Sequence record: OL780484.1
Direction: 5' to 3' (one strand)
Source: Escherichia phage vB_EcoM-E33
DNA length: 64,000 bases
Part shown: positions 575 through 55,905 of the stretch, one piece after another
Numbering within the stretch: position 1 is the first letter of the stretch
Layout of the letters: the number at the start of each line of letters is the position of its first letter
The notes under the pieces: model-generated
What the model saw: the letters and a program-made list of their open reading frames with translations, nothing else
Databases searched by the model: none
What the model was told of the DNA's origin: nothing
Program-made: the position numbers and the translations under genes

Positions 575-3286
575 ATGCAAGAATTCTATTTGACAGTCGA
601 ACAAATCGGTGATAATATTCTCGAACGTTACATCGATAAAAATGGTAACGAACGTAGTCGTGAAGTTCCTTACAAGCCTACAATGTTTATGCATGCTAAT
701 CCAGAGCAAGCCGTAAAATACATTGATATCTATGGTAAGGGTTGTGTTAAGAAAGAATTCGACTCTATGCGTGATGCATCCCAATGGATGAAACGTATGG
801 ACGATATGGGTCTCGAAGCCCTGGGTATGGACGACTATAAATTAGCCTATTTGTCTGATACCTATCGTAAAGAAATCAGATATGATTCTTCTAAGATTCG
901 TATTGCTAACTTCGACATCGAGGTAACATCTCCTGATGGATTCCCTGAACCAGCTCAGGCTAAACATCCTATCGATGCCATTACCCACTACGACTCGATT
1001 GACGATAAATTCTATGTATTCGACCTTTTAGTTTCGCCTTATGGTACTGTCGAAGAGTGGTCGATTAAAATCGCTGAGAAACTCCAAGACGAAGGCGGTG
1101 ACGAAGTTCCACAAGAAATCATTGACAAAATCGTTTATCTTCCGTTTAATTCTGAAGAAGAAATGATGCTTGAGTACTTGAATTTCTGGCAACAGAAAAC
1201 TCCTGTGATTTTGACTGGATGGAACGTTGAGTCGTTTGACGTACCGTACGTTTATAACCGTCTGAAAAATCTGTTCGGTGAGAACACTGCTAAGCGATTA
1301 AGCCCACATCGTAAAACTCGTGTTAAAGTTATTGAGAACATGTACGGGGCTCGTGAAATCATTACATTGTTCGGTATCTCTGTTCTGGATTATATCGACC
1401 TCTATAAAAAATTCAGCTTCACCAACCAGCCTTCTTATTCTCTGGATTATGTTTCTGAATATGAATTGAAAGTAGGTAAGTTGAAATATGATGGCCCAAT
1501 CTCCAAGTTACGTGAGACGAACCACCAACGATATATTTCCTATAACATTATCGACGTATATCGTGTAGTGCAGATTGATATGAAGCGTCAGTTCATTCTT
1601 CTGAGTTTGGACATGGGTTATTATGCCAAGATGCAGATTCAGTCGGTGTTCAGCCCAATTAAGACTTGGGACGCTATTATCTTTAATAGCCTTAAAGAAC
1701 AAGGCAAGGTAATTCCACAAGCTCGCTCACACGTGGTCCAACCTTATCCTGGTGCTTTCGTTAAGGAACCGATTCCTAACGCTTACAAATATGTAATGAG
1801 TTTCGACCTTACATCTCTGTATCCGAGTATCATTCGACAAGTGAATATAAGCCCAGAGACCATCGCAGGGACATTCGCTAACGCACCGATACATGAATAT
1901 ATTGCCGGAACTGCTCAGCGTCCTAGCGACACCTACAGTTGCTCTCCTAACGGCATGATGTACTATAAAGACCGTGAAGGTGTGATTCCGACAGAAATCA
2001 CCAAGGTATTCTTGCAGCGTAAAGAACATAAAGGTTACATGCTTGCAGCTCAACGTAATGGTGAGTTAATTAAAGAAGCATTGGAAAATCCTAATCTCTC
2101 AGTTGATAGTCCACTGGATATCGATTATCGTTTTGACTTCTCTGACGAAATCAAAGCCAAGATTAAAGCACTGTCAGCGCCTTCTTTAAGAGAAATGTTG
2201 AAGAAAGCCGAGCTCACTGAAGTTGCAGGTAACACTGCTCAGATTAACCGTAAGTTGCTTATCAACTCCCTTTATGGTGCACTTGGTAACGTATGGTTCC
2301 GTTACTATGACCTCAGGAACGCAACTGCAATCACATTGTTTGGTCAAATGGCCCTCCAATGGATTGAACGTAAGGTTAACGAATATCTGAATAGCGTGTG
2401 TAAGACTGAAAACCAGAAGTTCGTGCTCTACGGTGATACTGACTCCATTTATGTTAAGGCAGATGCAATCATCAATAAAGTAGGCGAAGATAAATTCCGT
2501 GATACTAACCACTGGGTCGACTTCTTAGATAAATTTGCACGTGAACGTATGGAACCAGCTATTGATGCAGGCTTCCGTGAGATGTGCGAATACATGAACA
2601 ACAAACAACACTTGATGTTCATGGACCGAGAAGCTATCGCAGGTCCTCCACTTGGTTCTAAAGGCCTTGGTGGATTCTGGACAGGCAAGAAACGTTATGC
2701 ACTTAACGTTTGGGACATGGAAGGTACTCGTTATGCTGAACCACACTTGAAAATCATGGGTCTCGAAACTCAGAAATCAAGTACACCTAAAGCAGTTCAG
2801 AAAGCTCTGAAGGAATGTATCCGTCGTATGCTTCAGGAAGGCGAGGCATCTTTGCAAGAATATTTCAAACAGTTTAATAAGGAATTTAACGAACTCGATT
2901 ATGTAAGCATTGCAGCAGTATCCAGTGCTAACAACATCGAGAAATATAATGAAGGTGGATTCCCGGGTTCTAAATGTCCATACCACATCAAAGGTTGCTT
3001 AGCTTACATGCGTGCTTCTGCAGGTGATTTGACTATGCCTCGTATCGTTGATGGTGAAAAGGTATATGTACTGCCACTTAAAGAAGGCAACCCGTTCGGT
3101 GAAGCTTGTATGGCATGGCCGTCAGGTATTGAACTTCCGGTTCAGATTCGTGACCAAGTCCTCCGTTGGATGGACTACAACGTACTGTTCCAAAAGACCT
3201 TTATCAAACCTCTGACCGGTTTTACTGAGTCTGCTAAAATCGACTACGAGAAAAAAGCAACATTATTTGATATGTTCGACTTTTAA
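575..3286 (+). CDS. 43: DNA polymerase gp43 (family B, 3'-5' exonuclease + polymerase)
   Basis: 903-aa product starting MQEFYLTVEQIGDN…; strong similarity by recollection to T4/RB69 gp43 incl. exo motifs (FDIEV) and polymerase motifs (SLYPSII, YGDTDS); SD AAGGAAA 7 nt upstream of ATG 575. Confidence 0.97.
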   Translation: MQEFYLTVEQIGDNILERYIDKNGNERSREVPYKPTMFMHANPEQAVKYIDIYGKGCVKKEFDSMRDASQWMKRMDDMGLEALGMDDYKLAYLSDTYRKEIRYDSSKIRIANFDIEVTSPDGFPEPAQAKHPIDAITHYDSIDDKFYVFDLLVSPYGTVEEWSIKIAEKLQDEGGDEVPQEIIDKIVYLPFNSEEEMMLEYLNFWQQKTPVILTGWNVESFDVPYVYNRLKNLFGENTAKRLSPHRKTRVKVIENMYGAREIITLFGISVLDYIDLYKKFSFTNQPSYSLDYVSEYELKVGKLKYDGPISKLRETNHQRYISYNIIDVYRVVQIDMKRQFILLSLDMGYYAKMQIQSVFSPIKTWDAIIFNSLKEQGKVIPQARSHVVQPYPGAFVKEPIPNAYKYVMSFDLTSLYPSIIRQVNISPETIAGTFANAPIHEYIAGTAQRPSDTYSCSPNGMMYYKDREGVIPTEITKVFLQRKEHKGYMLAAQRNGELIKEALENPNLSVDSPLDIDYRFDFSDEIKAKIKALSAPSLREMLKKAELTEVAGNTAQINRKLLINSLYGALGNVWFRYYDLRNATAITLFGQMALQWIERKVNEYLNSVCKTENQKFVLYGDTDSIYVKADAIINKVGEDKFRDTNHWVDFLDKFARERMEPAIDAGFREMCEYMNNKQHLMFMDREAIAGPPLGSKGLGGFWTGKKRYALNVWDMEGTRYAEPHLKIMGLETQKSSTPKAVQKALKECIRRMLQEGEASLQEYFKQFNKEFNELDYVSIAAVSSANNIEKYNEGGFPGSKCPYHIKGCLAYMRASAGDLTMPRIVDGEKVYVLPLKEGNPFGEACMAWPSGIELPVQIRDQVLRWMDYNVLFQKTFIKPLTGFTESAKIDYEKKATLFDMFDF

Positions 3287-3288
3287 GT

Positions 3289-3318
3289 GTTTACATACCA
3301 CAAGGAACGTGGTAGTAT
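3289..3318 (+). promoter_or_regulatory. T4-type early promoter (GTTTAC -35, TAGTAT -10)
   Basis: GTTTAC at 3289, ~18-nt spacer, TAGTAT, then conserved leader CTATCAACT and SD GAGGAAA before imm. Confidence 0.55.
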
Positions 3319-3348
3319 CCTTCCTATCAACTACATGAGGAAATTACA

Positions 3349-3585
3349 ATGGAAGCTTTAATCGTTAGTGCTGGTGTTTTAGGATTCGGTTCTCTGGTTA
3401 TTATGTTCATCGGTTACTTTTTACCATGGATTCTGGCTCTTCTGCGAGGCACTCGTAGTAATGTAGGAATTTTCTTCCTTAATCTCCTGTTAGGCTGGAC
3501 GATGATTGGTTGGGTAGTGGCTTTAATCTGGGCTATCGTCGCTGAACGTAAATCAAACGCACAAATCATTATTGTTAAACAATGA
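3349..3585 (+). CDS. imm: Immunity to superinfection membrane protein Imm
   Basis: 78-aa highly hydrophobic two-helix protein directly downstream of gene 43, as T4 imm. Confidence 0.8.
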   Translation: MEALIVSAGVLGFGSLVIMFIGYFLPWILALLRGTRSNVGIFFLNLLLGWTMIGWVVALIWAIVAERKSNAQIIIVKQ

Positions 3586-3726
3586 AAATAATTGTTTTAT
3601 TTCTTATAATGGCTGCCTTTACCGTTTATTGGGCAGTGGCAATTCCGCCAATGATTCCGACACTCATCATTGGATGGATTATTCTTATAGCACAAATTAA
3701 GTATAACTGTTTTAATTGAGGATATT

Positions 3727-4227
3727 ATGAAAAAGTTAATTATCGCAATGAGTATGCTCCTATCAGGTTGCGCGGTCCAATATGGTGATACAGTTTCGGC
3801 CGATGAAGTTGGTAAAGCTCGTATCGCAGCTGAACAGAAACAATTCGATGGCGAAATGAAATTCCGTGCAGGTTCTGGACTTGTGTACACCCGAGCTAAT
3901 AATCAATGCGGTAATAACTGTGCAAAATATGCTCAACAAGAAATCGAATTCCAACGTGAACAAGAGTCCAAGCGTGAAGCGGTACTAGCCAAACACCAGG
4001 CAGAAATGAAGCGTCAAGATGATTTGTACAAAAAGCAGAAACTGTATGCGATGTGCGTAAACCATATCAATCTACAGATTTCCATCCACGAGGCTCGTTA
4101 TTACGAAATGCTCGAAACCGAGAGCTTCGGTAAAGCTCGTGATTATAAGAAACAAATCGATAAGCTCAAGACCAAAGTACCGGCGGCAATAGAACAGTGT
4201 ATTGAAATCGGTAAAGATAAGATTTAA
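3727..4227 (+). CDS. Putative lipoprotein (signal peptide with lipobox LLSGC), coiled-coil rich
   Basis: N-terminus MKKLIIAMSMLLSGC; SD TGAGGA upstream. Confidence 0.6.
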   Translation: MKKLIIAMSMLLSGCAVQYGDTVSADEVGKARIAAEQKQFDGEMKFRAGSGLVYTRANNQCGNNCAKYAQQEIEFQREQESKREAVLAKHQAEMKRQDDLYKKQKLYAMCVNHINLQISIHEARYYEMLETESFGKARDYKKQIDKLKTKVPAAIEQCIEIGKDKI

Positions 4228-4287
4228 GCAATACCAATTTATTAAAAATAGTGTATAATGTACCTACATTCACTTGAGGAACAGATA

Positions 4288-5961
4288 ATGAAAAAGGTTG
4301 TTATTTTAGGCGCGGGTCTTGGCTCACGGTTGTATCCAATTACCAACGAAATCCCGAAGGTACTGGTTAACTACAAACAACATACTGTATTAAAACATTT
4401 GTATGATTTGTATAGTAATCAATCAGATGAAATTATTCTGGTTATTCACAGCAAATTTAACGACCTCGTTAAAGGCTATATTAAATCCATTAACATGATT
4501 AATAGTGATAAGCCTAAATTCACTATTCGTAACGTTGATGTTGCCAATGGTTCGGCTCATGCTATCGATTGCATTGCCGAAGATATCATTGGGCACAATG
4601 TCTTGTTTAACTGGTGTGATATTATTCCTGAAGGTCATAAAGTTGAGTGGGATAACGACTACTGTTATACCTATGGGACTGACTGTCGTTTTACATTTGA
4701 AGAACCGTACTTGCGTGAAATTGGTACCGGTGGTGGCGTAGTTGGCTTGTATCAGGTGGCTAATTGGACAGGTTTCGACCGTTCTAATTATGGTGAAGAC
4801 CTTGCTGACAACCTGGATTCAATGGTCCATTTGACTGAACGTAAGTTAGACTTTGTAGTTGATGTTGGTGACAAACTGAAACTGGCTAAGGCGCATGAAG
4901 ATTCTGAAATTAACCGTGAATTTAATAAATTAGAGTTCACCGAGAATCTAGCTATTAAAGTACCAACTAACGAATTGGGTAAAGAAATCCAATCTAAAGA
5001 AATCAATTGGTATAATTCTATTGATTCCGAATTCGTTCCTAGCATTGTAGACTTTGCTCCAGGCGAATTCATTAAAATGGAACGTATCTTTGGTCGAACC
5101 ATGGCAGATGCCTACCGGTTTATGTCTAAAGAAACTAAAGTCCTAATGGTTTATAAGGTTATTAGTGCATTACGTTCGTTCGGTGGAACTATCGATAATC
5201 CGTCCGATGAGCAATGGTATTCTGATGTTAAGAAAGAAGTATTGGACAAGGTCCTTATTCGTAATGCTTCTATTGCCGGATTGATTGAAGGCTTTGCTCC
5301 ACAGGGTATTACCCATGTTAACGACTTCAAGGTAGGCGACCCAGAAAAACTTCTTCGTCACGCCTTAGAAATTCTGTCTGAACATAAAGAACCGTACCAA
5401 CTTATTCATGGCGACCCGCACTACAGTAATATTATGTTGTCGGACGAAGGTAATATTAAAATCATCGACCCACGTGGTTATTTTGGTAATAGTTCTAAAG
5501 GCCCTGCGATTTATGATGAAGCTAAGGTGCTTTATTCTATCGATGGTTATGACAAATTTAACTCTGACCCTCTATGGGGTGGCTTAACTCGTAACGGAAC
5601 TCGTGTATTCGTTGATATTGAAAAGGTTATGCCTTTAGATGATATTCCGATGTGTACATTTAAGCACAAGCTCTGGATTGCTGTTATCTGGATGGCATTG
5701 GCAGGTTACTTTAAAAATAACCCTCTGAAAGCTCTGGGCGCTTATTACAATGGGCTATATCAACTGAGTGTGCTGCTGAAGCGGCATCCTCGTAAGCGTA
5801 AGCTTATCACAGGTGAATTCGTTGATGAAGTTCGCGACCCTATCACGGCTCAAATTATCACTCGTTGTCCTGATAAGTGGGTTTTGCTTGACCAGGAAAC
5901 TGGTGTAAAATATAAACCTACAGGTTCTACCGAACTCCACAAACAATGGAAGAAAATTTAA
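4288..5961 (+). CDS. Bifunctional sugar-1-phosphate nucleotidyltransferase / APH-choline-kinase-like kinase (557 aa)
   Basis: N-term motif ILGAGLGSRLYPIT…PKVLV (canonical G-x-G-x-R-x-P-K of NDP-sugar pyrophosphorylases); C-term catalytic loop LIHGDPHYSNIML…IIDPRGYFG (HGDxxxxN + D motif of APH/ChoK/anomeric sugar kinases); ATG 4288 with SD GAGGAA. Confidence 0.7.
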   Translation: MKKVVILGAGLGSRLYPITNEIPKVLVNYKQHTVLKHLYDLYSNQSDEIILVIHSKFNDLVKGYIKSINMINSDKPKFTIRNVDVANGSAHAIDCIAEDIIGHNVLFNWCDIIPEGHKVEWDNDYCYTYGTDCRFTFEEPYLREIGTGGGVVGLYQVANWTGFDRSNYGEDLADNLDSMVHLTERKLDFVVDVGDKLKLAKAHEDSEINREFNKLEFTENLAIKVPTNELGKEIQSKEINWYNSIDSEFVPSIVDFAPGEFIKMERIFGRTMADAYRFMSKETKVLMVYKVISALRSFGGTIDNPSDEQWYSDVKKEVLDKVLIRNASIAGLIEGFAPQGITHVNDFKVGDPEKLLRHALEILSEHKEPYQLIHGDPHYSNIMLSDEGNIKIIDPRGYFGNSSKGPAIYDEAKVLYSIDGYDKFNSDPLWGGLTRNGTRVFVDIEKVMPLDDIPMCTFKHKLWIAVIWMALAGYFKNNPLKALGAYYNGLYQLSVLLKRHPRKRKLITGEFVDEVRDPITAQIITRCPDKWVLLDQETGVKYKPTGSTELHKQWKKI

Positions 5962-6320
5962 TGCATCTGTGTTTTGATATCGATAATACCATTACTCACT
6001 GGCAAGATGACCGTGATTACGAAAACTTTAAACCGGACACCGAAATGGTGTCCATGATTAATAAGCTTTATGATGAAGGGTACGAGATTACCTTGTTCAC
6101 TGCCCGTGGTATGACTTCATGCGGCCCGGGTCGAATCTTGGTTGAAGTAGTTCCTGCATTAGTTAAGAACCTTGAAAAGATTGGATTGAAATATCACAAT
6201 CTGCTTACACATAAGCCGAGTTATACTTTTATCATCGATGACCGAGCAATCCGTCCTGACCACTTTAAAGAAATGGTTCGTGAAGGAACTCTTGAAACCT
6301 ATAAGGCATATCATCCGTGA
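5946..6320 (+). CDS. Small HAD-superfamily phosphatase-like protein (124 aa)
   Basis: Motif I FDIDNTIT (DxDxT), motif II T in ITLFTARG, motif IV FIIDDR; start overlaps upstream stop. Confidence 0.6.
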   Translation: MEENLMHLCFDIDNTITHWQDDRDYENFKPDTEMVSMINKLYDEGYEITLFTARGMTSCGPGRILVEVVPALVKNLEKIGLKYHNLLTHKPSYTFIIDDRAIRPDHFKEMVREGTLETYKAYHP

Positions 6321-6853
6321 AACCAAAAATCATTGTTATCGACGGCCCGGATAATTCCGGGAAGTCTACTTTAATTGAATCACTTTTATCTGATAAGAAA
6401 TATCGTCTTATTGATTTCCCTAAAAAGATTAATGGCAAATGCATTTCATTAGGGACCGATAATGACAAGGCTTTAGTCGAGACGTTGTATAAGTTTTTAG
6501 ACCCTAATTTCGTTTACATCCTTGACCGTGGTTATCCAAGTAATATTGTTTACTCGGGATTCCTTCGCGGTGAAATGGACCCTTATGTAGAACTGGAAGA
6601 TTGGAAAAGGTTTAAATCTGAATTCAATATTATTGAGGTTATTTTAACCCGTAATCCACTGGATAAAGACTTTGAAGATGACCTTATTAAATTAACCAAA
6701 GATGAGTTCAACCTAACTATCCGCCAATACGAAACATGTTTTGAAAACGTGTTTAAAATCTTAAATCACGACGGCCATAATAACTTGCTTAACGTCGATA
6801 TGGTAGAATTAAAACGTCTGAATGAATATATTGAAAATAAGGTGAATAAATGA
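6317..6853 (+). CDS. P-loop kinase, thymidylate/deoxynucleotide-kinase-like (178 aa)
   Basis: Walker A IVIDGPDNSGKST; LDRGYPSNIVYSG resembles dTMP kinase DRY/S…Y motif; GTG start overlapping upstream stop. Confidence 0.65.
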   Translation: MKPKIIVIDGPDNSGKSTLIESLLSDKKYRLIDFPKKINGKCISLGTDNDKALVETLYKFLDPNFVYILDRGYPSNIVYSGFLRGEMDPYVELEDWKRFKSEFNIIEVILTRNPLDKDFEDDLIKLTKDEFNLTIRQYETCFENVFKILNHDGHNNLLNVDMVELKRLNEYIENKVNK

Positions 6854-7548
6854 AACACATTACCGCTGTTAGTTTTGAAAACGCGTTTAAGCAAATGAAC
6901 GAAGAAATCCTGGAAGCTCCACAGTTTGCAGTTGATTCTCGTATCGGCCGTTGTTATGAAATTGGTTCTGCTTCGGTAGAAGTACTGGATGCAAGCACCT
7001 ATAAATTCACCGACCCTCGTATTAATCGTATCAACTATGATTATGCCGAATCTTTCTGGAAGTTTATGATTTCTGGTGGTACTGACGCCGCCGAAGCATT
7101 TAAGGAATACCCTAATGTTGCTAAGTTCATTGATAAGCCGAAAAGTGACGTATTGCCTGCAAACTTCAACACTTTCTATGGACCTAGAATTGTGGCCCAA
7201 CTCCCAGCCTTACTTAAAGAGCTTAAAGAGAAGCCTAACTCAAGACGAGTTGTGTTCCAAATTCTCCAAGAACAAGACCAAGCCCTCCTTGATTCTGACG
7301 AATCCTTAGAATATCCATGTACTGATTCAGTGACATATTATATTCGTGATGGACGTCTTTATGCACATACCCATATGCGTTCACAGAACTGTGCTATTGT
7401 TATGCAGCTGGATTTCTATCTGCAGGGTAAACTGATGGCCTTTATTGCTGAACAGTGTGGTGTTGGTCTGGGTACGTATTCCCATACTATGGTTAGTGCA
7501 CACGTATTTGAACGTGATTTTGACTACGTTCGAGGATTCCTGAAATGA
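6850..7548 (+). CDS. 42: dCMP hydroxymethylase gp42 (thymidylate-synthase fold)
   Basis: 232 aa; position between imm and uvsX as T4 gene 42; TS-like C-terminal region; start overlaps upstream stop. Confidence 0.8.
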   Translation: MKHITAVSFENAFKQMNEEILEAPQFAVDSRIGRCYEIGSASVEVLDASTYKFTDPRINRINYDYAESFWKFMISGGTDAAEAFKEYPNVAKFIDKPKSDVLPANFNTFYGPRIVAQLPALLKELKEKPNSRRVVFQILQEQDQALLDSDESLEYPCTDSVTYYIRDGRLYAHTHMRSQNCAIVMQLDFYLQGKLMAFIAEQCGVGLGTYSHTMVSAHVFERDFDYVRGFLK

Positions 7549-8438
7549 GTTTGTTTATCGTTCCTATTTTCAGTATGCGTAGTTACGAAACAGGTGAATA
7601 TGCCGTCCTTAAGGACGGTAATTTTCAACTCCATTTAAACCGTGCTTGCCAAGGTGATTATCTGGCTTATCCTAGAAATTCGAGCGATATCAAAGAATGC
7701 ATTGAATTATTTCCTGAACTGAATTTTGTACCTCTTTGGTATAAAGAAAATGCTTATGAAACTCGTAAACATTTTTGGTCTGAAAATGAGTTCGTTGTTG
7801 ATTCGTTAATCGAATACTATGACTGCTCAGGATTGGTAACCGATATCACAGGTTATGATGGCACTCAGACTGTACAATTCAACTTTAACATTACAATGGA
7901 CCCTGAAGTTCCTCGTTATTATATCGACGAGTTTATTGATACCGACGTGTCCTCAGTTGAACGTTCGATTTATACCACAGTCCTGAATCAATGCCAGAAA
8001 GACGTCCTGGTGTCACGAGGTGCGTCCTCTGATAAGATTTTTGTAGACCAAAAGGTAATTAATCCGGCAGTAATTGAGCGTTACTCTGAAGGCCTAGCGC
8101 CTATTAAAATTGATGGTATTTTCCATCCATTCCGTATCTCTGATAAATGTTATCAATTCGAAAGAGTTGTAGACCAAGCTGCGGCTGAAGGTTCTCGCCT
8201 TTATATCACCGATCCGAATGATTCATTTAAGCGTGAAGACTATCGTCCTGATGTAGAGATTATTAAATTCAAACCGAGTAAGGTTGAATATTATCAGATT
8301 CTGAAATCAAGACCTCATATCATTTATCATGAGAATCCCAGTTTAGTATTTCATCCTGGCCTGGCTGAATTCATTTATTTCGGTGCCCACATCCATTCTG
8401 AGCACGAAATGCCAAGTTATGAGGACGTGGTCCTTTAA
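7545..8438 (+). CDS. Hypothetical 297-aa protein occupying the T4 beta-glucosyltransferase locus (candidate DNA-modifying transferase)
   Basis: Located between 42 and uvsX where T4 encodes beta-gt; no resemblance by eye to T4 alpha/beta-gt; start overlaps gene 42 stop (coupled). Confidence 0.6.
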   Translation: MSLFIVPIFSMRSYETGEYAVLKDGNFQLHLNRACQGDYLAYPRNSSDIKECIELFPELNFVPLWYKENAYETRKHFWSENEFVVDSLIEYYDCSGLVTDITGYDGTQTVQFNFNITMDPEVPRYYIDEFIDTDVSSVERSIYTTVLNQCQKDVLVSRGASSDKIFVDQKVINPAVIERYSEGLAPIKIDGIFHPFRISDKCYQFERVVDQAAAEGSRLYITDPNDSFKREDYRPDVEIIKFKPSKVEYYQILKSRPHIIYHENPSLVFHPGLAEFIYFGAHIHSEHEMPSYEDVVL

Positions 8439-8515
8439 CGCTGTAAATGTGAAGTGATATAATTACCCTATCTTAAAACGTGAGTAAAATATAATGATGC
8501 CTATGGAAAAATATA

Positions 8516-9688
8516 ATGTCTGATTTAAAATCCCGTTTGATTAAAGCTTCTACTTCTAAAATGACCGCCGACCTGACCAAATCTAAATTGTTTAATGGTC
8601 GTGACGAAGTTCCTACTCGTATCCCTATGCTGAATATTGCATTAGGCGGTGCGTTGAATGCAGGCTTACAATCAGGTTTGACAATCTTTGCTGCTCCATC
8701 TAAACACTTTAAAACGTTGTTTGGACTTACCATGGTTGCGGCATATATGAAGAAATATCCAGACGCAATTTGTTTGTTCTATGACTCTGAGTTTGGTGCT
8801 TCAGAATCTTATTTCCGTTCGATGGGTGTTGATTTGGAACGTGTGGTTCATACACCAATCCAGTCAGTCGAACAGCTTAAAGTTGATATGACCAACCAGT
8901 TAGAAGAAATTACTCGTGGCGAAAAGGTTATTATCTTTATCGACTCCATTGGTAACACTGCTTCTAAGAAAGAAACCGAAGATGCTTTGAACGAGAAAGT
9001 TGTAGGTGATATGACTCGTGCTAAATCACTGAAATCTCTGTTCCGTATCGTAACACCTTATCTGACCATCAAAGATATCCCTTGTGTAGCAATTAACCAC
9101 ACGGCTATGGAAATTGGTGGAATGTACCCTAAAGAGATTATGGGTGGTGGTACTGGTATTCTGTACTCTGCTTCTACCGTGTTCTTTATCTCTAAACGTC
9201 AGGTTAAAGATGGTACTGAGCTCACTGGTTATGACTTCACACTGAAGGCCGAGAAATCTCGTACGGTTAAAGAGAAATCAACGTTCCCGATTACAGTGAA
9301 CTTCGAAGGTGGTATCGACCCATTCAGTGGATTGCTTGAAATGGCTACTGATATTGGCTTTGTCGTGAAACCTAAAGCTGGCTGGTATAATCGTGCATTC
9401 CTTGACGAAACCACAGGCGAAATGGTTCAAGAAGAAAAAGCATGGCGTGCTAAAGCTACCGATTGTGTCGAGTTCTGGGGACCGCTGTTTAAACATGCCC
9501 CGTTCCGTGAAGCAATCGAGAATAAGTATAAGCTCGGTGCAATTAATTCTATTAAAGAAGTTGACGATGCAGTGAACGACCTTATTAACTCTCGTGTCTC
9601 TAAGAACGTTGCTGTTAAATTAGGTGGTAATGCCCAAAGCGCCGCTGATATCGAAAACGATTTGGAAGAGATGAATTTAGATGACTGA
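8516..9688 (+). CDS. uvsX: Recombinase UvsX (RecA-like)
   Basis: MSDLKSRLIKASTSK… near-identical N-terminus to T4 UvsX; Walker A GPSKHFKT region; 390 aa. Confidence 0.97.
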   Translation: MSDLKSRLIKASTSKMTADLTKSKLFNGRDEVPTRIPMLNIALGGALNAGLQSGLTIFAAPSKHFKTLFGLTMVAAYMKKYPDAICLFYDSEFGASESYFRSMGVDLERVVHTPIQSVEQLKVDMTNQLEEITRGEKVIIFIDSIGNTASKKETEDALNEKVVGDMTRAKSLKSLFRIVTPYLTIKDIPCVAINHTAMEIGGMYPKEIMGGGTGILYSASTVFFISKRQVKDGTELTGYDFTLKAEKSRTVKEKSTFPITVNFEGGIDPFSGLLEMATDIGFVVKPKAGWYNRAFLDETTGEMVQEEKAWRAKATDCVEFWGPLFKHAPFREAIENKYKLGAINSIKEVDDAVNDLINSRVSKNVAVKLGGNAQSAADIENDLEEMNLDD

Positions 9689-15379: not shown

Positions 15380-15901
15380 ATGGCATTTTTTAACGAATGT
15401 AGTGGTTTGATTTCTGGTGTTGATAAAGCTGAGGAAGCTTATTTTAATGCTCTGATTCATGAAGATAAAGACCCTCTGCAGGTTATGCTTGATATGCAGA
15501 AATCATTACAGGTCCGTTTGGCTACTGAAAAATCTGAATTTAACTCTAACCCCGATGAACTGGCTACTGCAGGTCAAGTTGTCGATTGGCTTCGCAACCA
15601 GAAAGATTATATTGATGACGAATTCCGTGAACTGTTGACTTCTCTTGGTGGCATGAGTAATGGTGAGAAAGCCGCATCTAGCGTCTGGAAGCCTTGGAAA
15701 GCTCAGCACGGTGAATTCCGTAACCGTCGTATTGACGAACTCTCTCCTGAAGACCAGCTTGAAATTAAATTCGAGATGATTGATATTCTGCACTTTGTTC
15801 TGAATATGTTCCAAGGTCTTGGTCTGTCAGCCGAAGAAATCTTTAAGTTGTATTACCTGAAAAACGCTGAGAACTTTGCTCGTCAAGACCGAGGTTATTA
15901 A
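15380..15901 (+). CDS. 56: dCTP pyrophosphatase gp56 (MazG-like dCTPase/dUTPase)
   Basis: 173 aa vs T4 gp56 171 aa; synteny; all-alpha NTP-PPase-like sequence. Confidence 0.75.
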   Translation: MAFFNECSGLISGVDKAEEAYFNALIHEDKDPLQVMLDMQKSLQVRLATEKSEFNSNPDELATAGQVVDWLRNQKDYIDDEFRELLTSLGGMSNGEKAASSVWKPWKAQHGEFRNRRIDELSPEDQLEIKFEMIDILHFVLNMFQGLGLSAEEIFKLYYLKNAENFARQDRGY

Positions 15902-27486: not shown

Positions 27487-27530
27487 TAAATATGTATGGT
27501 ACTAATTGGTGCCATACAAAAGGAGACTTT

Positions 27531-27692
27531 ATGAGAAAGTACTGGGTTACGCTCGTCACCGGTGAATACGGTTATATCTGGACTGATACTAGACCTCAGT
27601 TTGCAGAATACGTGACTATTACAGTCGAGACATGGGACGGCGAAGTTTACCAAACCCGCGGACAAGTCTATAAGGTCGATTCAAGTAACTAA
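27531..27692 (+). CDS. Small hypothetical protein (53 aa)
   Basis: ATG 27531 after SD AGGAG; ORF track 27492..27692. Confidence 0.4.
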   Translation: MRKYWVTLVTGEYGYIWTDTRPQFAEYVTITVETWDGEVYQTRGQVYKVDSSN

Positions 27693-27700
27693 ACTAATAA

Positions 27701-27719
27701 GGGCCTTCGGGCCCTTTTC
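27701..27719 (+). terminator. Terminator-like hairpin (gggcc-UUCG-ggccc + TTTT)
   Basis: Stem-loop after stop at 27692. Confidence 0.5.
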
Positions 27720-27769
27720 GGGGTTTACAAAGACCTGTGGTTATGATAGGATTATCTAGAGGTGAGAAT

Positions 27770-28093
27770 ATGATTATGCAAGATAACAGTATAGTGAACA
27801 CTGACAATCTAGCTTTATCCTTTATGGAAACGGCCATTCGTAACTGTAAAGATGAAGGAGTAGTGACTACAAGCGGTAAGGGACTTGAATACCTTAAGGC
27901 TGTAAAATCTATTGCCTTAAAGATTAAAGATAACCAGGCGCTCTCTCCTGTGGTCCAGGAAAAGGTTTTAGAGATAATGTATCGCCACAGAGAGCACAAA
28001 AGTACAATGGGTTCTATGAGAAGAATTCTGGCTGAACTAGGTTCTACCAGAGAATATGTTCAACATGAGGTAGTTAAAAATGACAAACTTTAA
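27770..28093 (+). CDS. Hypothetical protein (107 aa)
   Basis: ATG 27770 after SD GAGGTGAG; early promoter upstream. Confidence 0.45.
   Translation: MIMQDNSIVNTDNLALSFMETAIRNCKDEGVVTTSGKGLEYLKAVKSIALKIKDNQALSPVVQEKVLEIMYRHREHKSTMGSMRRILAELGSTREYVQHEVVKNDKL

Positions 28094-54222: not shown

Positions 54223-55905
<1,683 letters not shown>

What the first reader, a model, noticed from the sequence alone, without database searches (positions are those of the whole stretch)
4288..8438. Translationally coupled cassette around gene 42 encoding a putative NDP-sugar pathway for non-glucose hmC hypermodification
Five consecutive genes have overlapping stop/start codons: a sugar-1-P nucleotidyltransferase/APH-like kinase fusion, a minimal HAD phosphatase, a dTMP-kinase-like P-loop protein, dCMP hydroxymethylase gp42, and a 297-aa protein at the T4 beta-gt locus. 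T4 needs only host UDP-glucose plus alpha/beta-gt, so a phage-encoded kinase, phosphatase and nucleotidyltransferase implies the phage makes its own activated sugar donor. The kinase-phosphatase-nucleotidyltransferase logic resembles NDP-heptose or salvage NDP-sugar pathways that pass through a sugar bisphosphate. RB69-type phages have been reported to carry arabinosyl-hmC, so this may be related, but the sugar and the gene assignment cannot be read from sequence.
Basis: partly seen in the sequence, partly recalled or inferred. Interest (0 to 1): 0.88.

Follow-up and report, generated by a model that had tools for sequence, protein, structure and literature searches.

The report
Phage arabinosyl-hydroxycytosine DNA modification cassette
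This five-gene block of a T4-like coliphage (genus Dhakavirus) is the recently published pathway that replaces cytosine in phage DNA with arabinose-decorated 5-hydroxycytosine, here in its smallest known form, so it is real and interesting biology but already explained.

Summary
Such overlaps are common in this genome.

The window is a Dhakavirus, 99-100% identical to QL01, WG01 and Bp7. The cassette is the Afh-type pathway published in 2025-2026 for RB69, HY126 and DLP3:
- **4288-5961:** an AfhE-like fusion of an arabinose-5-P 1-kinase and a UDP-arabinose pyrophosphorylase.
- **5946-6320:** an AfhF-like HAD phosphatase (PDB 9iqw, E 3e-53).
- **6317-6853:** a thymidylate-kinase-fold kinase.
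- **6850-7548:** a thymidylate-synthase homolog.
- **7545-8438:** a compact GT-B DNA glycosyltransferase, 64-69% identical to RB69 gp46:47.

The synthase homolog is not a gp42 hydroxymethylase. It is about 80% identical to PDB 9iqu and RB69 gp48, which are flavin/O2-dependent 5-hydroxy-dCMP synthases. It carries their diagnostic D169N signature and is only 25% identical to T4 gp42.

The base is wrong: 5-hydroxycytosine, not hmC.

What I add: Dhakavirus has the minimal version, with no phage arabinose-5-P isomerase, no U32/chorismate-mutase pair and no second glycosyltransferase. Its AfhE belongs to a divergent subtype that always lacks the isomerase (13 of 13 loci, against 21 of 21 with it). 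Virion DNA chemistry is untested.

Novelty: already known. Interest: low to moderate.

The parts
4288..5961 (+). AfhE-like bifunctional enzyme (557 aa). The N-terminal domain is a sugar-1-phosphate nucleotidyltransferase (G8-x-G10-x-x-x-R14-L15, K24). The C-terminal domain is an APH-type anomeric sugar kinase (H374-G-D376-x4-N381, D394-P-R-G). Predicted reactions: Araf-5-P to Araf-1,5-P2, and Araf-1-P + UTP to UDP-Araf.
   Evidence: Pfam NTP_transferase and APH both score above their gathering cut-offs. NCBIfam gives MurU, GlmU and RmlA-type hits on residues 3-119. It aligns over its full length with RB69 gp53+gp52 at 41-44% identity. Catalytic motifs are invariant across genera. PHROG 4098 matches at E 5e-269. 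Function is inferred from HY126 AfhE, as reported in PMC13326640.
5946..6320 (+). AfhF-like minimal HAD phosphatase (124 aa, or 119 aa from the ATG at 5961). Motif I is D11-I-D13-N-T. Predicted reaction: Araf-1,5-P2 to Araf-1-P.
   Evidence: PDB 9iqw matches at E 2.8e-53 and 1xpj at E 2.8e-12. It is 62% identical to RB69 gp51. TIGR01689 capsule-biosynthesis phosphatase matches at E 1.6e-14. Public records mis-annotate it as 'phosphoheptose isomerase'.
6317..6853 (+). Thymidylate-kinase-fold P-loop kinase (178 aa, GTG start). Walker A is G10-P-D-N-S-G-K16-S-T, with D70-R71-G. The probable substrate is a nucleotide (5-hydroxy-dCMP or its diphosphate). Its exact role is not established.
6850..7548 (+). 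5-hydroxy-dCMP synthase (232 aa), a thymidylate-synthase-superfamily, flavin/O2-dependent dCMP C5-hydroxylase. Key residues: catalytic Cys157, E154 (= ThyA L143E), N180 (= D169N signature), D188 (= N177D, cytosine specificity).
   Evidence: PDB 9iqu, 9iqc and 9ir2 match at E 1.5e-125 over residues 1-231. It is 79% identical to RB69 gp48 and 25% identical to T4 gp42. Signature residues were read from alignment A1. Activity of the RB69 and DLP3 homologs is shown in PMC13326640.
7545..8438 (+). Compact GT-B (GT4-like) DNA glycosyltransferase (297 aa). It is predicted to be the first, and here the only, arabinosyltransferase acting on 5-hydroxycytosine in DNA.
15380..15898 (+). dCTPase (gene 56 homolog), outside the reported interval. 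It supplies dCMP and removes dCTP, as required for full replacement of C.
   Evidence: tblastn with RB69 gp28 gives 93% identity over 173 aa.

Best explanation
The cassette is the Afh-type pathway that replaces cytosine in phage DNA with 5-O-arabinofuranosyl-5-hydroxycytosine. The window carries its smallest known configuration.

Nucleotide branch:
- The gene-56 dCTPase makes dCMP.
- The thymidylate-synthase homolog (6850-7548) hydroxylates dCMP at C5, using a flavin and O2 instead of folate.
- The phage dNMP kinase (gene 1, outside the window) and probably the adjacent thymidylate-kinase-like protein (6317-6853) phosphorylate the product.
- Host NDP kinase makes the triphosphate, and the phage polymerase incorporates it.

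Sugar branch:
- Arabinose-5-phosphate is taken from the host Kdo pathway (KdsD/GutQ), because no phage isomerase is present.
- The kinase domain of the fusion protein (4288-5961) phosphorylates it at C1.
- The HAD phosphatase (5946-6320) removes the 5-phosphate.
- The N-terminal domain of the fusion converts arabinose-1-phosphate plus UTP to UDP-arabinofuranose.

Transfer: the 297-aa GT-B enzyme (7545-8438) puts arabinose on the 5-hydroxyl of hydroxycytosine in DNA. With a single transferase, mono-arabinosylation is expected.

What is shown here: homology, signatures, folds and gene content. What is inferred: the enzymatic steps (from the HY126, RB69 and DLP3 homologs), the host origin of arabinose-5-P, the mono-arabinosyl outcome and the role of the kinase.
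For: - **Phage identity:** 99-100% identical to Dhakavirus QL01, WG01 and Bp7.
- **All five genes have RB69 counterparts**: gp52:53 at 41-44%, gp51 at 62%, gp45 at 37%, gp48 at 79%, gp46:47 at 64-69%.
- **Solved structures:** 9iqu/9iqc/9ir2 (E 1e-125) and 9iqw (E 3e-53) match the hydroxylase and the phosphatase. The neighbouring entry 9iqz is titled 'phage HY126 glycosyltransferase'.
- **Hydroxylase signatures:** D169N, N177D, L143E and the catalytic Cys are all present. Lee et al. propose D169N as diagnostic and validated it on nine further enzymes.
- **Intact catalytic motifs** in both AfhE domains and in the HAD.
- **Folds:** GT-B for the transferase and thymidylate kinase for the kinase.
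- **dCTPase present**.
- **Published biochemistry:** the enzymatic steps are reported in PMC13326640, which also lists Dhakaviruses among genera with the syntenic cluster.
- **No T4-type glucosyltransferase** in the window or the rest of the QL01 genome.
- **Same sugar likely:** HAD, hydroxylase and transferase show no clade-specific substitutions relative to arabinosylating phages.
Against: - No chemical analysis of Dhakavirus DNA was found in the accessible literature. The primary biochemical papers (He et al. 2026, Mahler et al. 2025) could not be read.
- The window's AfhE is only 41-46% identical to the characterised Mosigvirus and Lazarusvirus enzymes. It belongs to a separate subtype with 15 fixed differences, some inside the GxGxRL and HGDxxxxN motifs.
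- There is no phage arabinose-5-P isomerase anywhere in the genome, so the supply of the proposed substrate is assumed, not shown.
- The role of the thymidylate-kinase-like protein is unknown, because the gene-1 kinase already phosphorylates 5-hydroxy-dCMP in RB69.
Confidence: 0.85

Rival explanations
1. Gene 42 is a true dCMP hydroxymethylase, the phage DNA contains hmC, and the cassette supplies a non-glucose NDP-sugar that is attached to the hydroxymethyl group (arabinosyl-hmC, as originally reported for RB69).
For: The gene is in the thymidylate-synthase/dCMP-hydroxymethylase superfamily and occupies the position of T4 gene 42. Older literature lists JS98-type phages as gene-42 carriers and RB69 as arabosyl-hmC (PMC6024577).
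Against: - The enzyme is only 25% identical to T4 gp42 but about 80% identical to enzymes shown to make 5-hydroxy-dCMP.
- The folate-binding Asp169 is replaced by Asn, the published signature of the hydroxylases, whereas T4 gp42 keeps Asp.
- The RB69 structure was revised to an ether-linked arabosyl-5-hydroxycytosine by NMR and MS.
Confidence: 0.04
2. Same pathway architecture but a different sugar. The divergent AfhE subtype found in isomerase-less phages (Dhaka-, Marfa- and Providencia-type) phosphorylates and activates another host pentose phosphate, for example ribose-5-P, so the DNA carries a pentosyl-5-hydroxycytosine that is not arabinose.
For: - All 13 loci with this AfhE subtype lack an arabinose-5-P isomerase, and all 21 loci with the other subtype have one immediately upstream.
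- AfhE is the only cassette protein for which this clade is an outlier: 45% identity between clades against 60% within the other clade.
- It has 15 fixed differences, including positions in the nucleotidyltransferase signature and the kinase catalytic loop.
Against: - The two other enzymes that must bind the sugar show no clade-specific substitutions. The HAD and the transferase sit within the diversity of arabinosylating phages (63 vs 64% and 59 vs 57% identity, zero fixed differences).
- The divergence of AfhE is spread evenly over all its domains, which looks like an old split or a gene replacement rather than a remodelled pocket.
- All hosts concerned make arabinose-5-P for Kdo (established knowledge).
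- The association may reflect a single ancestral event.
Confidence: 0.08
3. The sugar genes are an auxiliary metabolic or cell-envelope module, unrelated to DNA modification (for example AmgK/MurU-like cell-wall sugar recycling or capsule precursor synthesis).
For: The N-terminal domain gives weak hits to MurU and the kinase domain to APH-family kinases. The HAD hits a 'capsule biosynthesis phosphatase' family. The PDB entry for the HAD homolog is named 'capsule biosynthesis protein'.
Against: - All these hits are far below the families' trusted cut-offs.
- In all 34 loci surveyed the genes sit in one block with the cytosine hydroxylase and the DNA glycosyltransferase, between DNA polymerase and uvsX.
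- The homologs were reconstituted as a UDP-arabinose pathway feeding DNA arabinosylation.
Confidence: 0.02

Closest known systems
Afh / arabinosyl-5-hydroxycytosine cluster of Mosigvirus phages RB69 and HY126 (Lee et al. 2026 NAR, PMC13326640; He et al. 2026 Nat Chem Biol; Mahler et al. 2025 Cell Host Microbe)
   Same: All five window genes have full-length homologs there: AfhE-like fusion, AfhF-like HAD, thymidylate-kinase-like protein, 5-hydroxy-dCMP synthase with D169N, and the 300-aa GT-B transferase. The genomic slot is the same, between DNA polymerase and uvsX. The gene-56 dCTPase is the same.
   Different: - The window lacks RB69 gp55 (arabinose-5-P isomerase), gp50 (Peptidase_U32 protein), gp49 and the second transferase gp3.
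- The kinase gene sits between the HAD and the hydroxylase instead of after the transferase.
- AfhE is only 41-44% identical and of a different subtype.
- RB69 DNA is mono- plus di-arabinosylated. Here only one transferase is present.
Acinetobacter phage DLP3/DLP1 (Lazarusvirus) tri-arabinosyl-5-hydroxycytosine cluster
   Same: Same five core genes in one block. Identities to the window are 46% (AfhE), 60% (HAD), 72% (hydroxylase), 52% (transferase) and 37% (kinase).
   Different: DLP-type clusters add an isomerase and two further GT-B transferases, giving tri-arabinose. Like the window, they lack the U32 protein.
T4 hmC glucosylation system (gp42 dCMP hydroxymethylase, alpha-gt, beta-gt, host UDP-glucose)
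   Different: The chemistry differs (flavin/O2 hydroxylation against folate-dependent hydroxymethylation; D169N). The sugar and donor differ, and the donor is made by the phage. There is no sequence similarity to beta-gt.
Bacterial NDP-heptose pathway (HldE kinase/adenylyltransferase + GmhB phosphatase) and AmgK/MurU anomeric-kinase/uridylyltransferase pair
   Same: The reaction logic is the same as NDP-heptose: sugar phosphate, then 1,x-bisphosphate, then sugar-1-phosphate via a HAD, then NDP-sugar, with kinase and nucleotidyltransferase fused. The domain families are the same as AmgK (APH-type) and MurU.
   Different: It works like HldE/GmhB but is not homologous to them. There is no PfkB or cytidylyltransferase domain, and the HAD is of the TIGR01689/1xpj type rather than GmhB. 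Matches to MurU and AmgK-type families are far below their cut-offs.

Membership tests
Afh-type arabinosyl-5-hydroxycytosine DNA modification cluster | Thymidylate-synthase-family 5-hydroxy-dCMP synthase carrying Asn at the ThyA Asp169 position, plus the catalytic Cys, N177D and L143E | tested here: met
   Window residues N180, C157, D188 and E154 in alignment A1. T4 gp42 and ThyA keep Asp. PDB 9iqu matches at E 1.5e-125. 79% identical to RB69 gp48.
Afh-type arabinosyl-5-hydroxycytosine DNA modification cluster | Bifunctional AfhE: N-terminal sugar-1-P nucleotidyltransferase fused to a C-terminal APH-type kinase | tested here: met
   Both Pfam domains score above their gathering cut-offs. Full-length collinear alignment with RB69 gp53+gp52 and the DLP1 homolog. 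GxGxRL, HGDxxxxN and DPRG motifs are invariant. It belongs to a divergent subtype.
Afh-type arabinosyl-5-hydroxycytosine DNA modification cluster | AfhF-type small HAD phosphatase adjacent to AfhE | tested here: met
   PDB 9iqw matches at E 2.8e-53. 62% identical to RB69 gp51. DxDxT motif present.
Afh-type arabinosyl-5-hydroxycytosine DNA modification cluster | GT-B DNA arabinosyltransferase of the RB69 gp46:47 / DLP3 gp79 family next to the hydroxylase | tested here: met
Afh-type arabinosyl-5-hydroxycytosine DNA modification cluster | Phage-encoded arabinose-5-phosphate isomerase (SIS domain) upstream of AfhE. It is present in RB69, DLP3 and 21 of 34 loci, so it is accessory rather than universal. 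| tested here: not met
   No hit in the window or in the rest of the QL01 genome with three isomerase queries. Also absent from Marfavirus and Providencia-type clusters.
Afh-type arabinosyl-5-hydroxycytosine DNA modification cluster | Arabinosylated 5-hydroxy-deoxycytidine actually replacing dC in virion DNA | not testable with these tools
   This needs nucleoside LC-MS or NMR. No such data for any Dhakavirus were found in the searchable literature.
Afh-type arabinosyl-5-hydroxycytosine DNA modification cluster | dCTPase (gene 56) and dNMP kinase (gene 1) to channel the modified nucleotide | tested here: met
   The dCTPase lies at 15380-15898 and is 93% identical to the RB69 enzyme. The dNMP kinase is annotated in QL01 as gp145, outside the window.
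T4-type glucosyl-hmC system | Folate-dependent dCMP hydroxymethylase orthologous to gp42 (Asp at the ThyA-169 position) | tested here: not met
   25% identity over 159 aa, E 7e-12. Asn replaces the Asp. PDB 1b49 scores only 29.8 bits, against 420 bits for 9iqu.
T4-type glucosyl-hmC system | alpha- or beta-glucosyltransferase homolog | tested here: not met
   beta-gt against the 297-aa protein gives E = 6. There is no beta-gt tblastn hit in the window or the rest of the QL01 genome. alpha-gt was not used as a sequence query; T4 alpha-GT is only a remote structural neighbour of the 297-aa protein, and QL01 annotates no glucosyltransferase at the alpha-gt locus.
HldE/GmhB NDP-heptose pathway | PfkB-type kinase plus cytidylyltransferase-type domain, and a GmhB-type HAD | tested here: not met
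   Pfam and NCBIfam give APH and RmlA/MurU-type domains and a TIGR01689-type HAD instead. The resemblance is in reaction logic only.

The most novel reading that the evidence does not exclude
The divergent AfhE subtype is found only in clusters that lack a phage arabinose-5-P isomerase (Dhaka-, Marfa- and Providencia-type phages). It may activate a host pentose phosphate other than arabinose-5-P. Dhakavirus DNA would then carry a pentosyl-5-hydroxycytosine not yet described, for example ribofuranosyl.

A weaker form of the same reading: this AfhE is specialised to scavenge the scarce Kdo-pathway arabinose-5-P. The five-gene Dhakavirus block would then be the minimal sufficient set for the modification, and a strictly O2-dependent one.
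Probability: 0.08. Interest if true: 0.7.

Novelty: already known. Interest (0 to 1): 0.28.

Why it matters
Complete replacement of cytosine by arabinosylated 5-hydroxycytosine shields phage DNA from many restriction and CRISPR systems, and it makes the DNA a target for type IV enzymes. Knowing which therapeutic coliphages carry the modification therefore matters for host range, for genome engineering and for sequencing. Dhakaviruses are common in phage-therapy collections.

This window shows that Dhakaviruses carry the pathway in its smallest form. Their public annotations are systematically wrong: 'phosphoheptose isomerase', 'thymidylate synthase', 'dCMP hydroxymethylase' and 'hypothetical'.

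The biology itself was published in 2025-2026, so the finding is confirmation, not discovery. The small additions here give concrete experiments:
- a distinct AfhE subtype tied to loss of the isomerase;
- a single transferase, which predicts mono-arabosylation;
- absence of the U32/chorismate-mutase pair that most enterobacterial relatives carry.

Tried and rejected
- **Second transferase, isomerase, U32 protein or chorismate mutase elsewhere.** I searched the window and the remaining 108 kb of the QL01 genome with tblastn, phmmer and an HMM of the transferase family. Nothing was found. The rIIA-gene 39 gap, where RB69 keeps gp3, holds only 66- and 118-aa ORFs.\n- **Translational coupling as evidence of a special operon.** Rejected as uninformative, because a third or more of junctions in this genome overlap.\n- **Promoter and terminator scan of 3200-8700.** Counts equalled shuffled controls, so no transcription-unit boundaries could be drawn.\n- **Primary biochemical papers.** He et al. 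2026 and Mahler et al. 2025 are not held. Their content is cited only as reported by PMC13326640 and PMC13390438.\n- **Experimental data on Dhakavirus DNA.** Only older statements that JS98 has gene 42 but no glucosyltransferases, plus generic 'non-canonical bases' remarks.\n- **Sequence search of the PDB** with the fusion, the transferase, the kinase and the U32 protein gave nothing close.\n- **RB69 gp49 as a chorismate mutase.** No Pfam hit and no similarity to the chorismate mutases of the other phages.\n- **Deeper alignment for the kinase.** The word-indexed search returned only 9 relatives, so the AF2 model rests on a shallow alignment.

Full report
**What is in the sequence**

The window is a T4-like phage of the genus Dhakavirus. 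The interval 4200-8500 is 99.2-99.5% identical to QL01, WG01, LHE83, PSD9 and ABTNLS3, and 97% identical to Bp7. The gene order is polymerase (gene 43), imm, cassette, uvsX, gene 40, gene 41, matching the QL01 annotation.

Five + strand ORFs occupy 4288-8438, exactly as reported. The first starts at the ATG at 4288, which has a GAGG ribosome-binding site.

All four junctions overlap. The first overlaps by 16 nt, or by 1 nt (TAATG) with the alternative start at 5961. The others are GTGA, ATGA and ATGA. This is real but not unusual. In QL01, 8 of 24 junctions around the locus overlap, and roughly 40% overlap in the next 50 kb, including a run of five at genes 46-47 (counted by eye). A promoter and terminator scan did not exceed shuffled controls.

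**What each protein is**

1. *4288-5961, 557 aa.* Pfam NTP_transferase covers residues 13-110 and APH covers 356-427, both above their gathering cut-offs. NCBIfam places the N-terminus among MurU, GlmU and RmlA-type sugar-1-phosphate nucleotidyltransferases. It aligns end to end with RB69 gp53+gp52, a single gene split by a sequencing error, at 41-44% identity. The GxGxRL, HGDxxxxN and DPRG motifs are invariant.
2. *5946-6320, 124 aa.* A minimal HAD with a DxDxT motif. PDB 9iqw matches at E 2.8e-53, and it is 62% identical to RB69 gp51.
4. *6850-7548, 232 aa.* Thymidylate-synthase superfamily. Its best solved relatives are 9iqu, 9iqc and 9ir2 at E 1.5e-125 over the whole length. T4 dCMP hydroxymethylase scores only 29.8 bits, at 25% identity.

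**The literature explains the cassette**

Lee et al. 2026 (PMC13326640) showed that RB69 and Acinetobacter phage DLP3 replace cytosine with mono- to tri-arabinosylated 5-hydroxycytosine, ether-linked at C5. This corrects the earlier 'arabosyl-hmC' assignment for RB69.

The thymidylate-synthase homolog makes 5-hydroxy-dCMP using a flavin and O2, confirmed by 18O2 labelling. Asn at the ThyA Asp169 position is proposed as the diagnostic signature, and it was validated on nine further enzymes.

As reported there, He et al. 2026 reconstituted the sugar branch in phage HY126. AfhE is both an arabinose-5-P kinase and a UDP-arabinose pyrophosphorylase. AfhF is the Mg-dependent phosphatase that converts arabinose-1,5-bisphosphate to arabinose-1-phosphate. 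The same paper names Dhakaviruses among genera with the syntenic cluster.

The 9iq* PDB entries appear to be the HY126 proteins. Entry 9iqz is titled as such. The 9iqu sequence printed is nearly identical to RB69 gp48 as shown.

**Testing membership here**

In alignment A1 the window enzyme has N180 where ThyA has D169 and T4 gp42 keeps Asp. It also has the catalytic C157, D188 (the N177D cytosine determinant) and E154 (L143E). The fourth gene is therefore a 5-hydroxy-dCMP synthase, not a hydroxymethylase.

A gene-56 dCTPase lies at 15380-15898, 93% identical to the RB69 enzyme. The gene-1 dNMP kinase is annotated elsewhere in QL01. No beta-gt homolog is encoded in the window or the rest of the QL01 genome.

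The defining components of the Afh-type system are all present. The chemistry of the virion DNA cannot be tested with these tools, and I found no published measurement for any Dhakavirus.

**How this copy differs**

The window and the remaining 108 kb of the QL01 genome (L005-L007) contain none of the following:
- a homolog of the RB69 arabinose-5-P isomerase (gp55);
- the Peptidase_U32 protein (gp50);
- the second transferase (gp3);
- any paralog of the 297-aa transferase.

The rIIA-gene 39 gap, where RB69 carries gp3, holds only small ORFs. The prediction is therefore mono-arabinosylation, with arabinose-5-P drawn from the host Kdo pathway. Both points are inferences.

I surveyed 34 clusters: the window, five loci fetched from phage records (including RB69) and 27 viral contigs.
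- The AfhE proteins fall into two groups. Group A (at least 71% identical to the window) comprises 7 Dhakavirus, 4 Marfavirus and 2 Providencia-type loci. None has an isomerase.
- Group B (41-46% identical to the window) has 21 loci. All have an isomerase directly upstream.

Mean AfhE identity between the groups is 45%, against 60% within group B, even though group B spans phages of Acinetobacter, Pseudomonas and Enterobacterales. For the other three proteins the two figures are equal: HAD 63 and 64%, hydroxylase 74 and 73%, transferase 59 and 57%.

AfhE has 15 positions fixed differently in the two groups, including A12G/T13S in the nucleotidyltransferase signature and N378H/F379Y in the kinase catalytic loop. 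The other three proteins have none.

AfhE is thus a distinct subtype coupled to the absence of the isomerase. The two other sugar-binding enzymes are unchanged, and the AfhE divergence is evenly spread over its domains. I therefore read this as the same sugar handled by a divergent or replaced AfhE, not as a new sugar. The alternative keeps a small probability. The association may also stem from a single ancestral event.

**The kinase**

Its fold is thymidylate kinase. It is found next to the hydroxylase in every locus. It is also present in phage RL38J1, which attaches hexoses rather than arabinose (Table 1). That argues for a nucleotide substrate. In RB69 the gene-1 kinase already converts 5-hydroxy-dCMP to the diphosphate, so the specific role remains open.

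**Verdict**

It is wrong about the base (5-hydroxycytosine, not hmC) and about gene 42.

The system is already described, including a statement that Dhakaviruses carry it. The remaining value lies in the minimal gene set, the AfhE subtype, the mis-annotation of public records and the missing chemistry.

**Side observation in relatives**

Most enterobacterial clusters carry a Peptidase_U32 protein between the kinase and the hydroxylase. It matches Pfam at E about 1e-11 and gives a weak UbiU hit. In most of them a type II chorismate mutase follows (Pfam E about 1e-10).

The U32 proteins are 83-89% identical across genera and have many invariant cysteines. Known U32 enzymes include RlhA, which makes 5-hydroxycytidine in rRNA, and TrhP. 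Both are prephenate-dependent hydroxylases (PMC5727448, PMC6599085); that they work without O2, and that UbiU/V behave likewise, is from my own knowledge. Chorismate mutase makes prephenate.

The pair is absent from all 7 Acinetobacter and Pseudomonas phage clusters and from Dhakavirus. This suggests an anaerobic route to 5-hydroxycytosine that the window phage lacks. Lee et al. do not mention U32, prephenate or chorismate.

Noticed in passing
L008 7675-9077; L009 7826-8992 and 9361-9735; L010 8493-10102; L002 8493-9662 (RB69 gp50). Absent from the window.: Related clusters carry a Peptidase_U32 protein, and most also carry a type II chorismate mutase, between the kinase and the hydroxylase. 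U32 enzymes such as RlhA and TrhP are prephenate-dependent hydroxylases (UbiU/V likewise, and their O2-independence, from my own knowledge), and chorismate mutase makes prephenate. The pair could therefore be an anaerobic route to 5-hydroxycytosine. It is present in all Enterobacterales-phage clusters surveyed except Dhakavirus, and absent from 7 of 7 Acinetobacter and Pseudomonas phage clusters. The published RB69 paper labels gp50 'sugar or heterocycle reductase' and never mentions U32 or prephenate.
   Followed up: partly
window 4288-5961 and loci L008-L038: AfhE splits into two subtypes that track the presence of the phage arabinose-5-P isomerase perfectly (13 of 13 without, 21 of 21 with). 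AfhE is the only cassette protein with clade-specific fixed substitutions: 15, against 0 in the HAD, hydroxylase and transferase.
   Followed up: yes
window 5946-6320, 6850-7548 and 7545-8438, and public records QL01, WG01, Bp7, IME08 and others: Public annotations of this cassette are misleading. The HAD phosphatase is called 'phosphoheptose isomerase'. The hydroxylase is called 'thymidylate synthase' or 'dCMP hydroxymethylase'. Some records give 'capsid and scaffold protein' or 'RNA polymerase binding protein' under the match.
   Followed up: partly
window 3727-4227 (+): A 166-aa ORF lies between imm and the cassette. It has an N-terminal signal-like sequence ending in a lipobox-like LSGC, so it is a likely lipoprotein. 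It matches PHROG 1754 (unknown function) and has no counterpart at this position in RB69 or T4.
   Followed up: no
window 3582-3719 (+): A 45-aa hydrophobic ORF overlaps the end of imm. It is 56% identical to RB69 gp54 and similar to the T4 '42-imm intercistronic region', so it is a conserved small membrane protein that QL01 does not annotate.
   Followed up: no
window 27487-28080: RB69 carries its second arabinosyltransferase (gp3) between gene 39 and rIIA.1. At that position this phage has only a 66-aa and a 118-aa ORF of unknown function.
   Followed up: partly
window 55408-55704 (+): A second thymidylate-synthase-family gene, presumably the ordinary td thymidylate synthase, gives a weak hit with the RB69 hydroxylase (22% identity, E 4e-5). 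The phage therefore carries two paralogs with different chemistry.
   Followed up: no
L002 10095-11781 and 6598-7498 (RB69 reference record): In the RB69 RefSeq record both the AfhE gene (gp52/gp53) and the first transferase gene (gp46/gp47) are split into two ORFs. The window's intact single ORFs align across both halves, which agrees with the published view that the splits are sequencing errors.
   Followed up: partly
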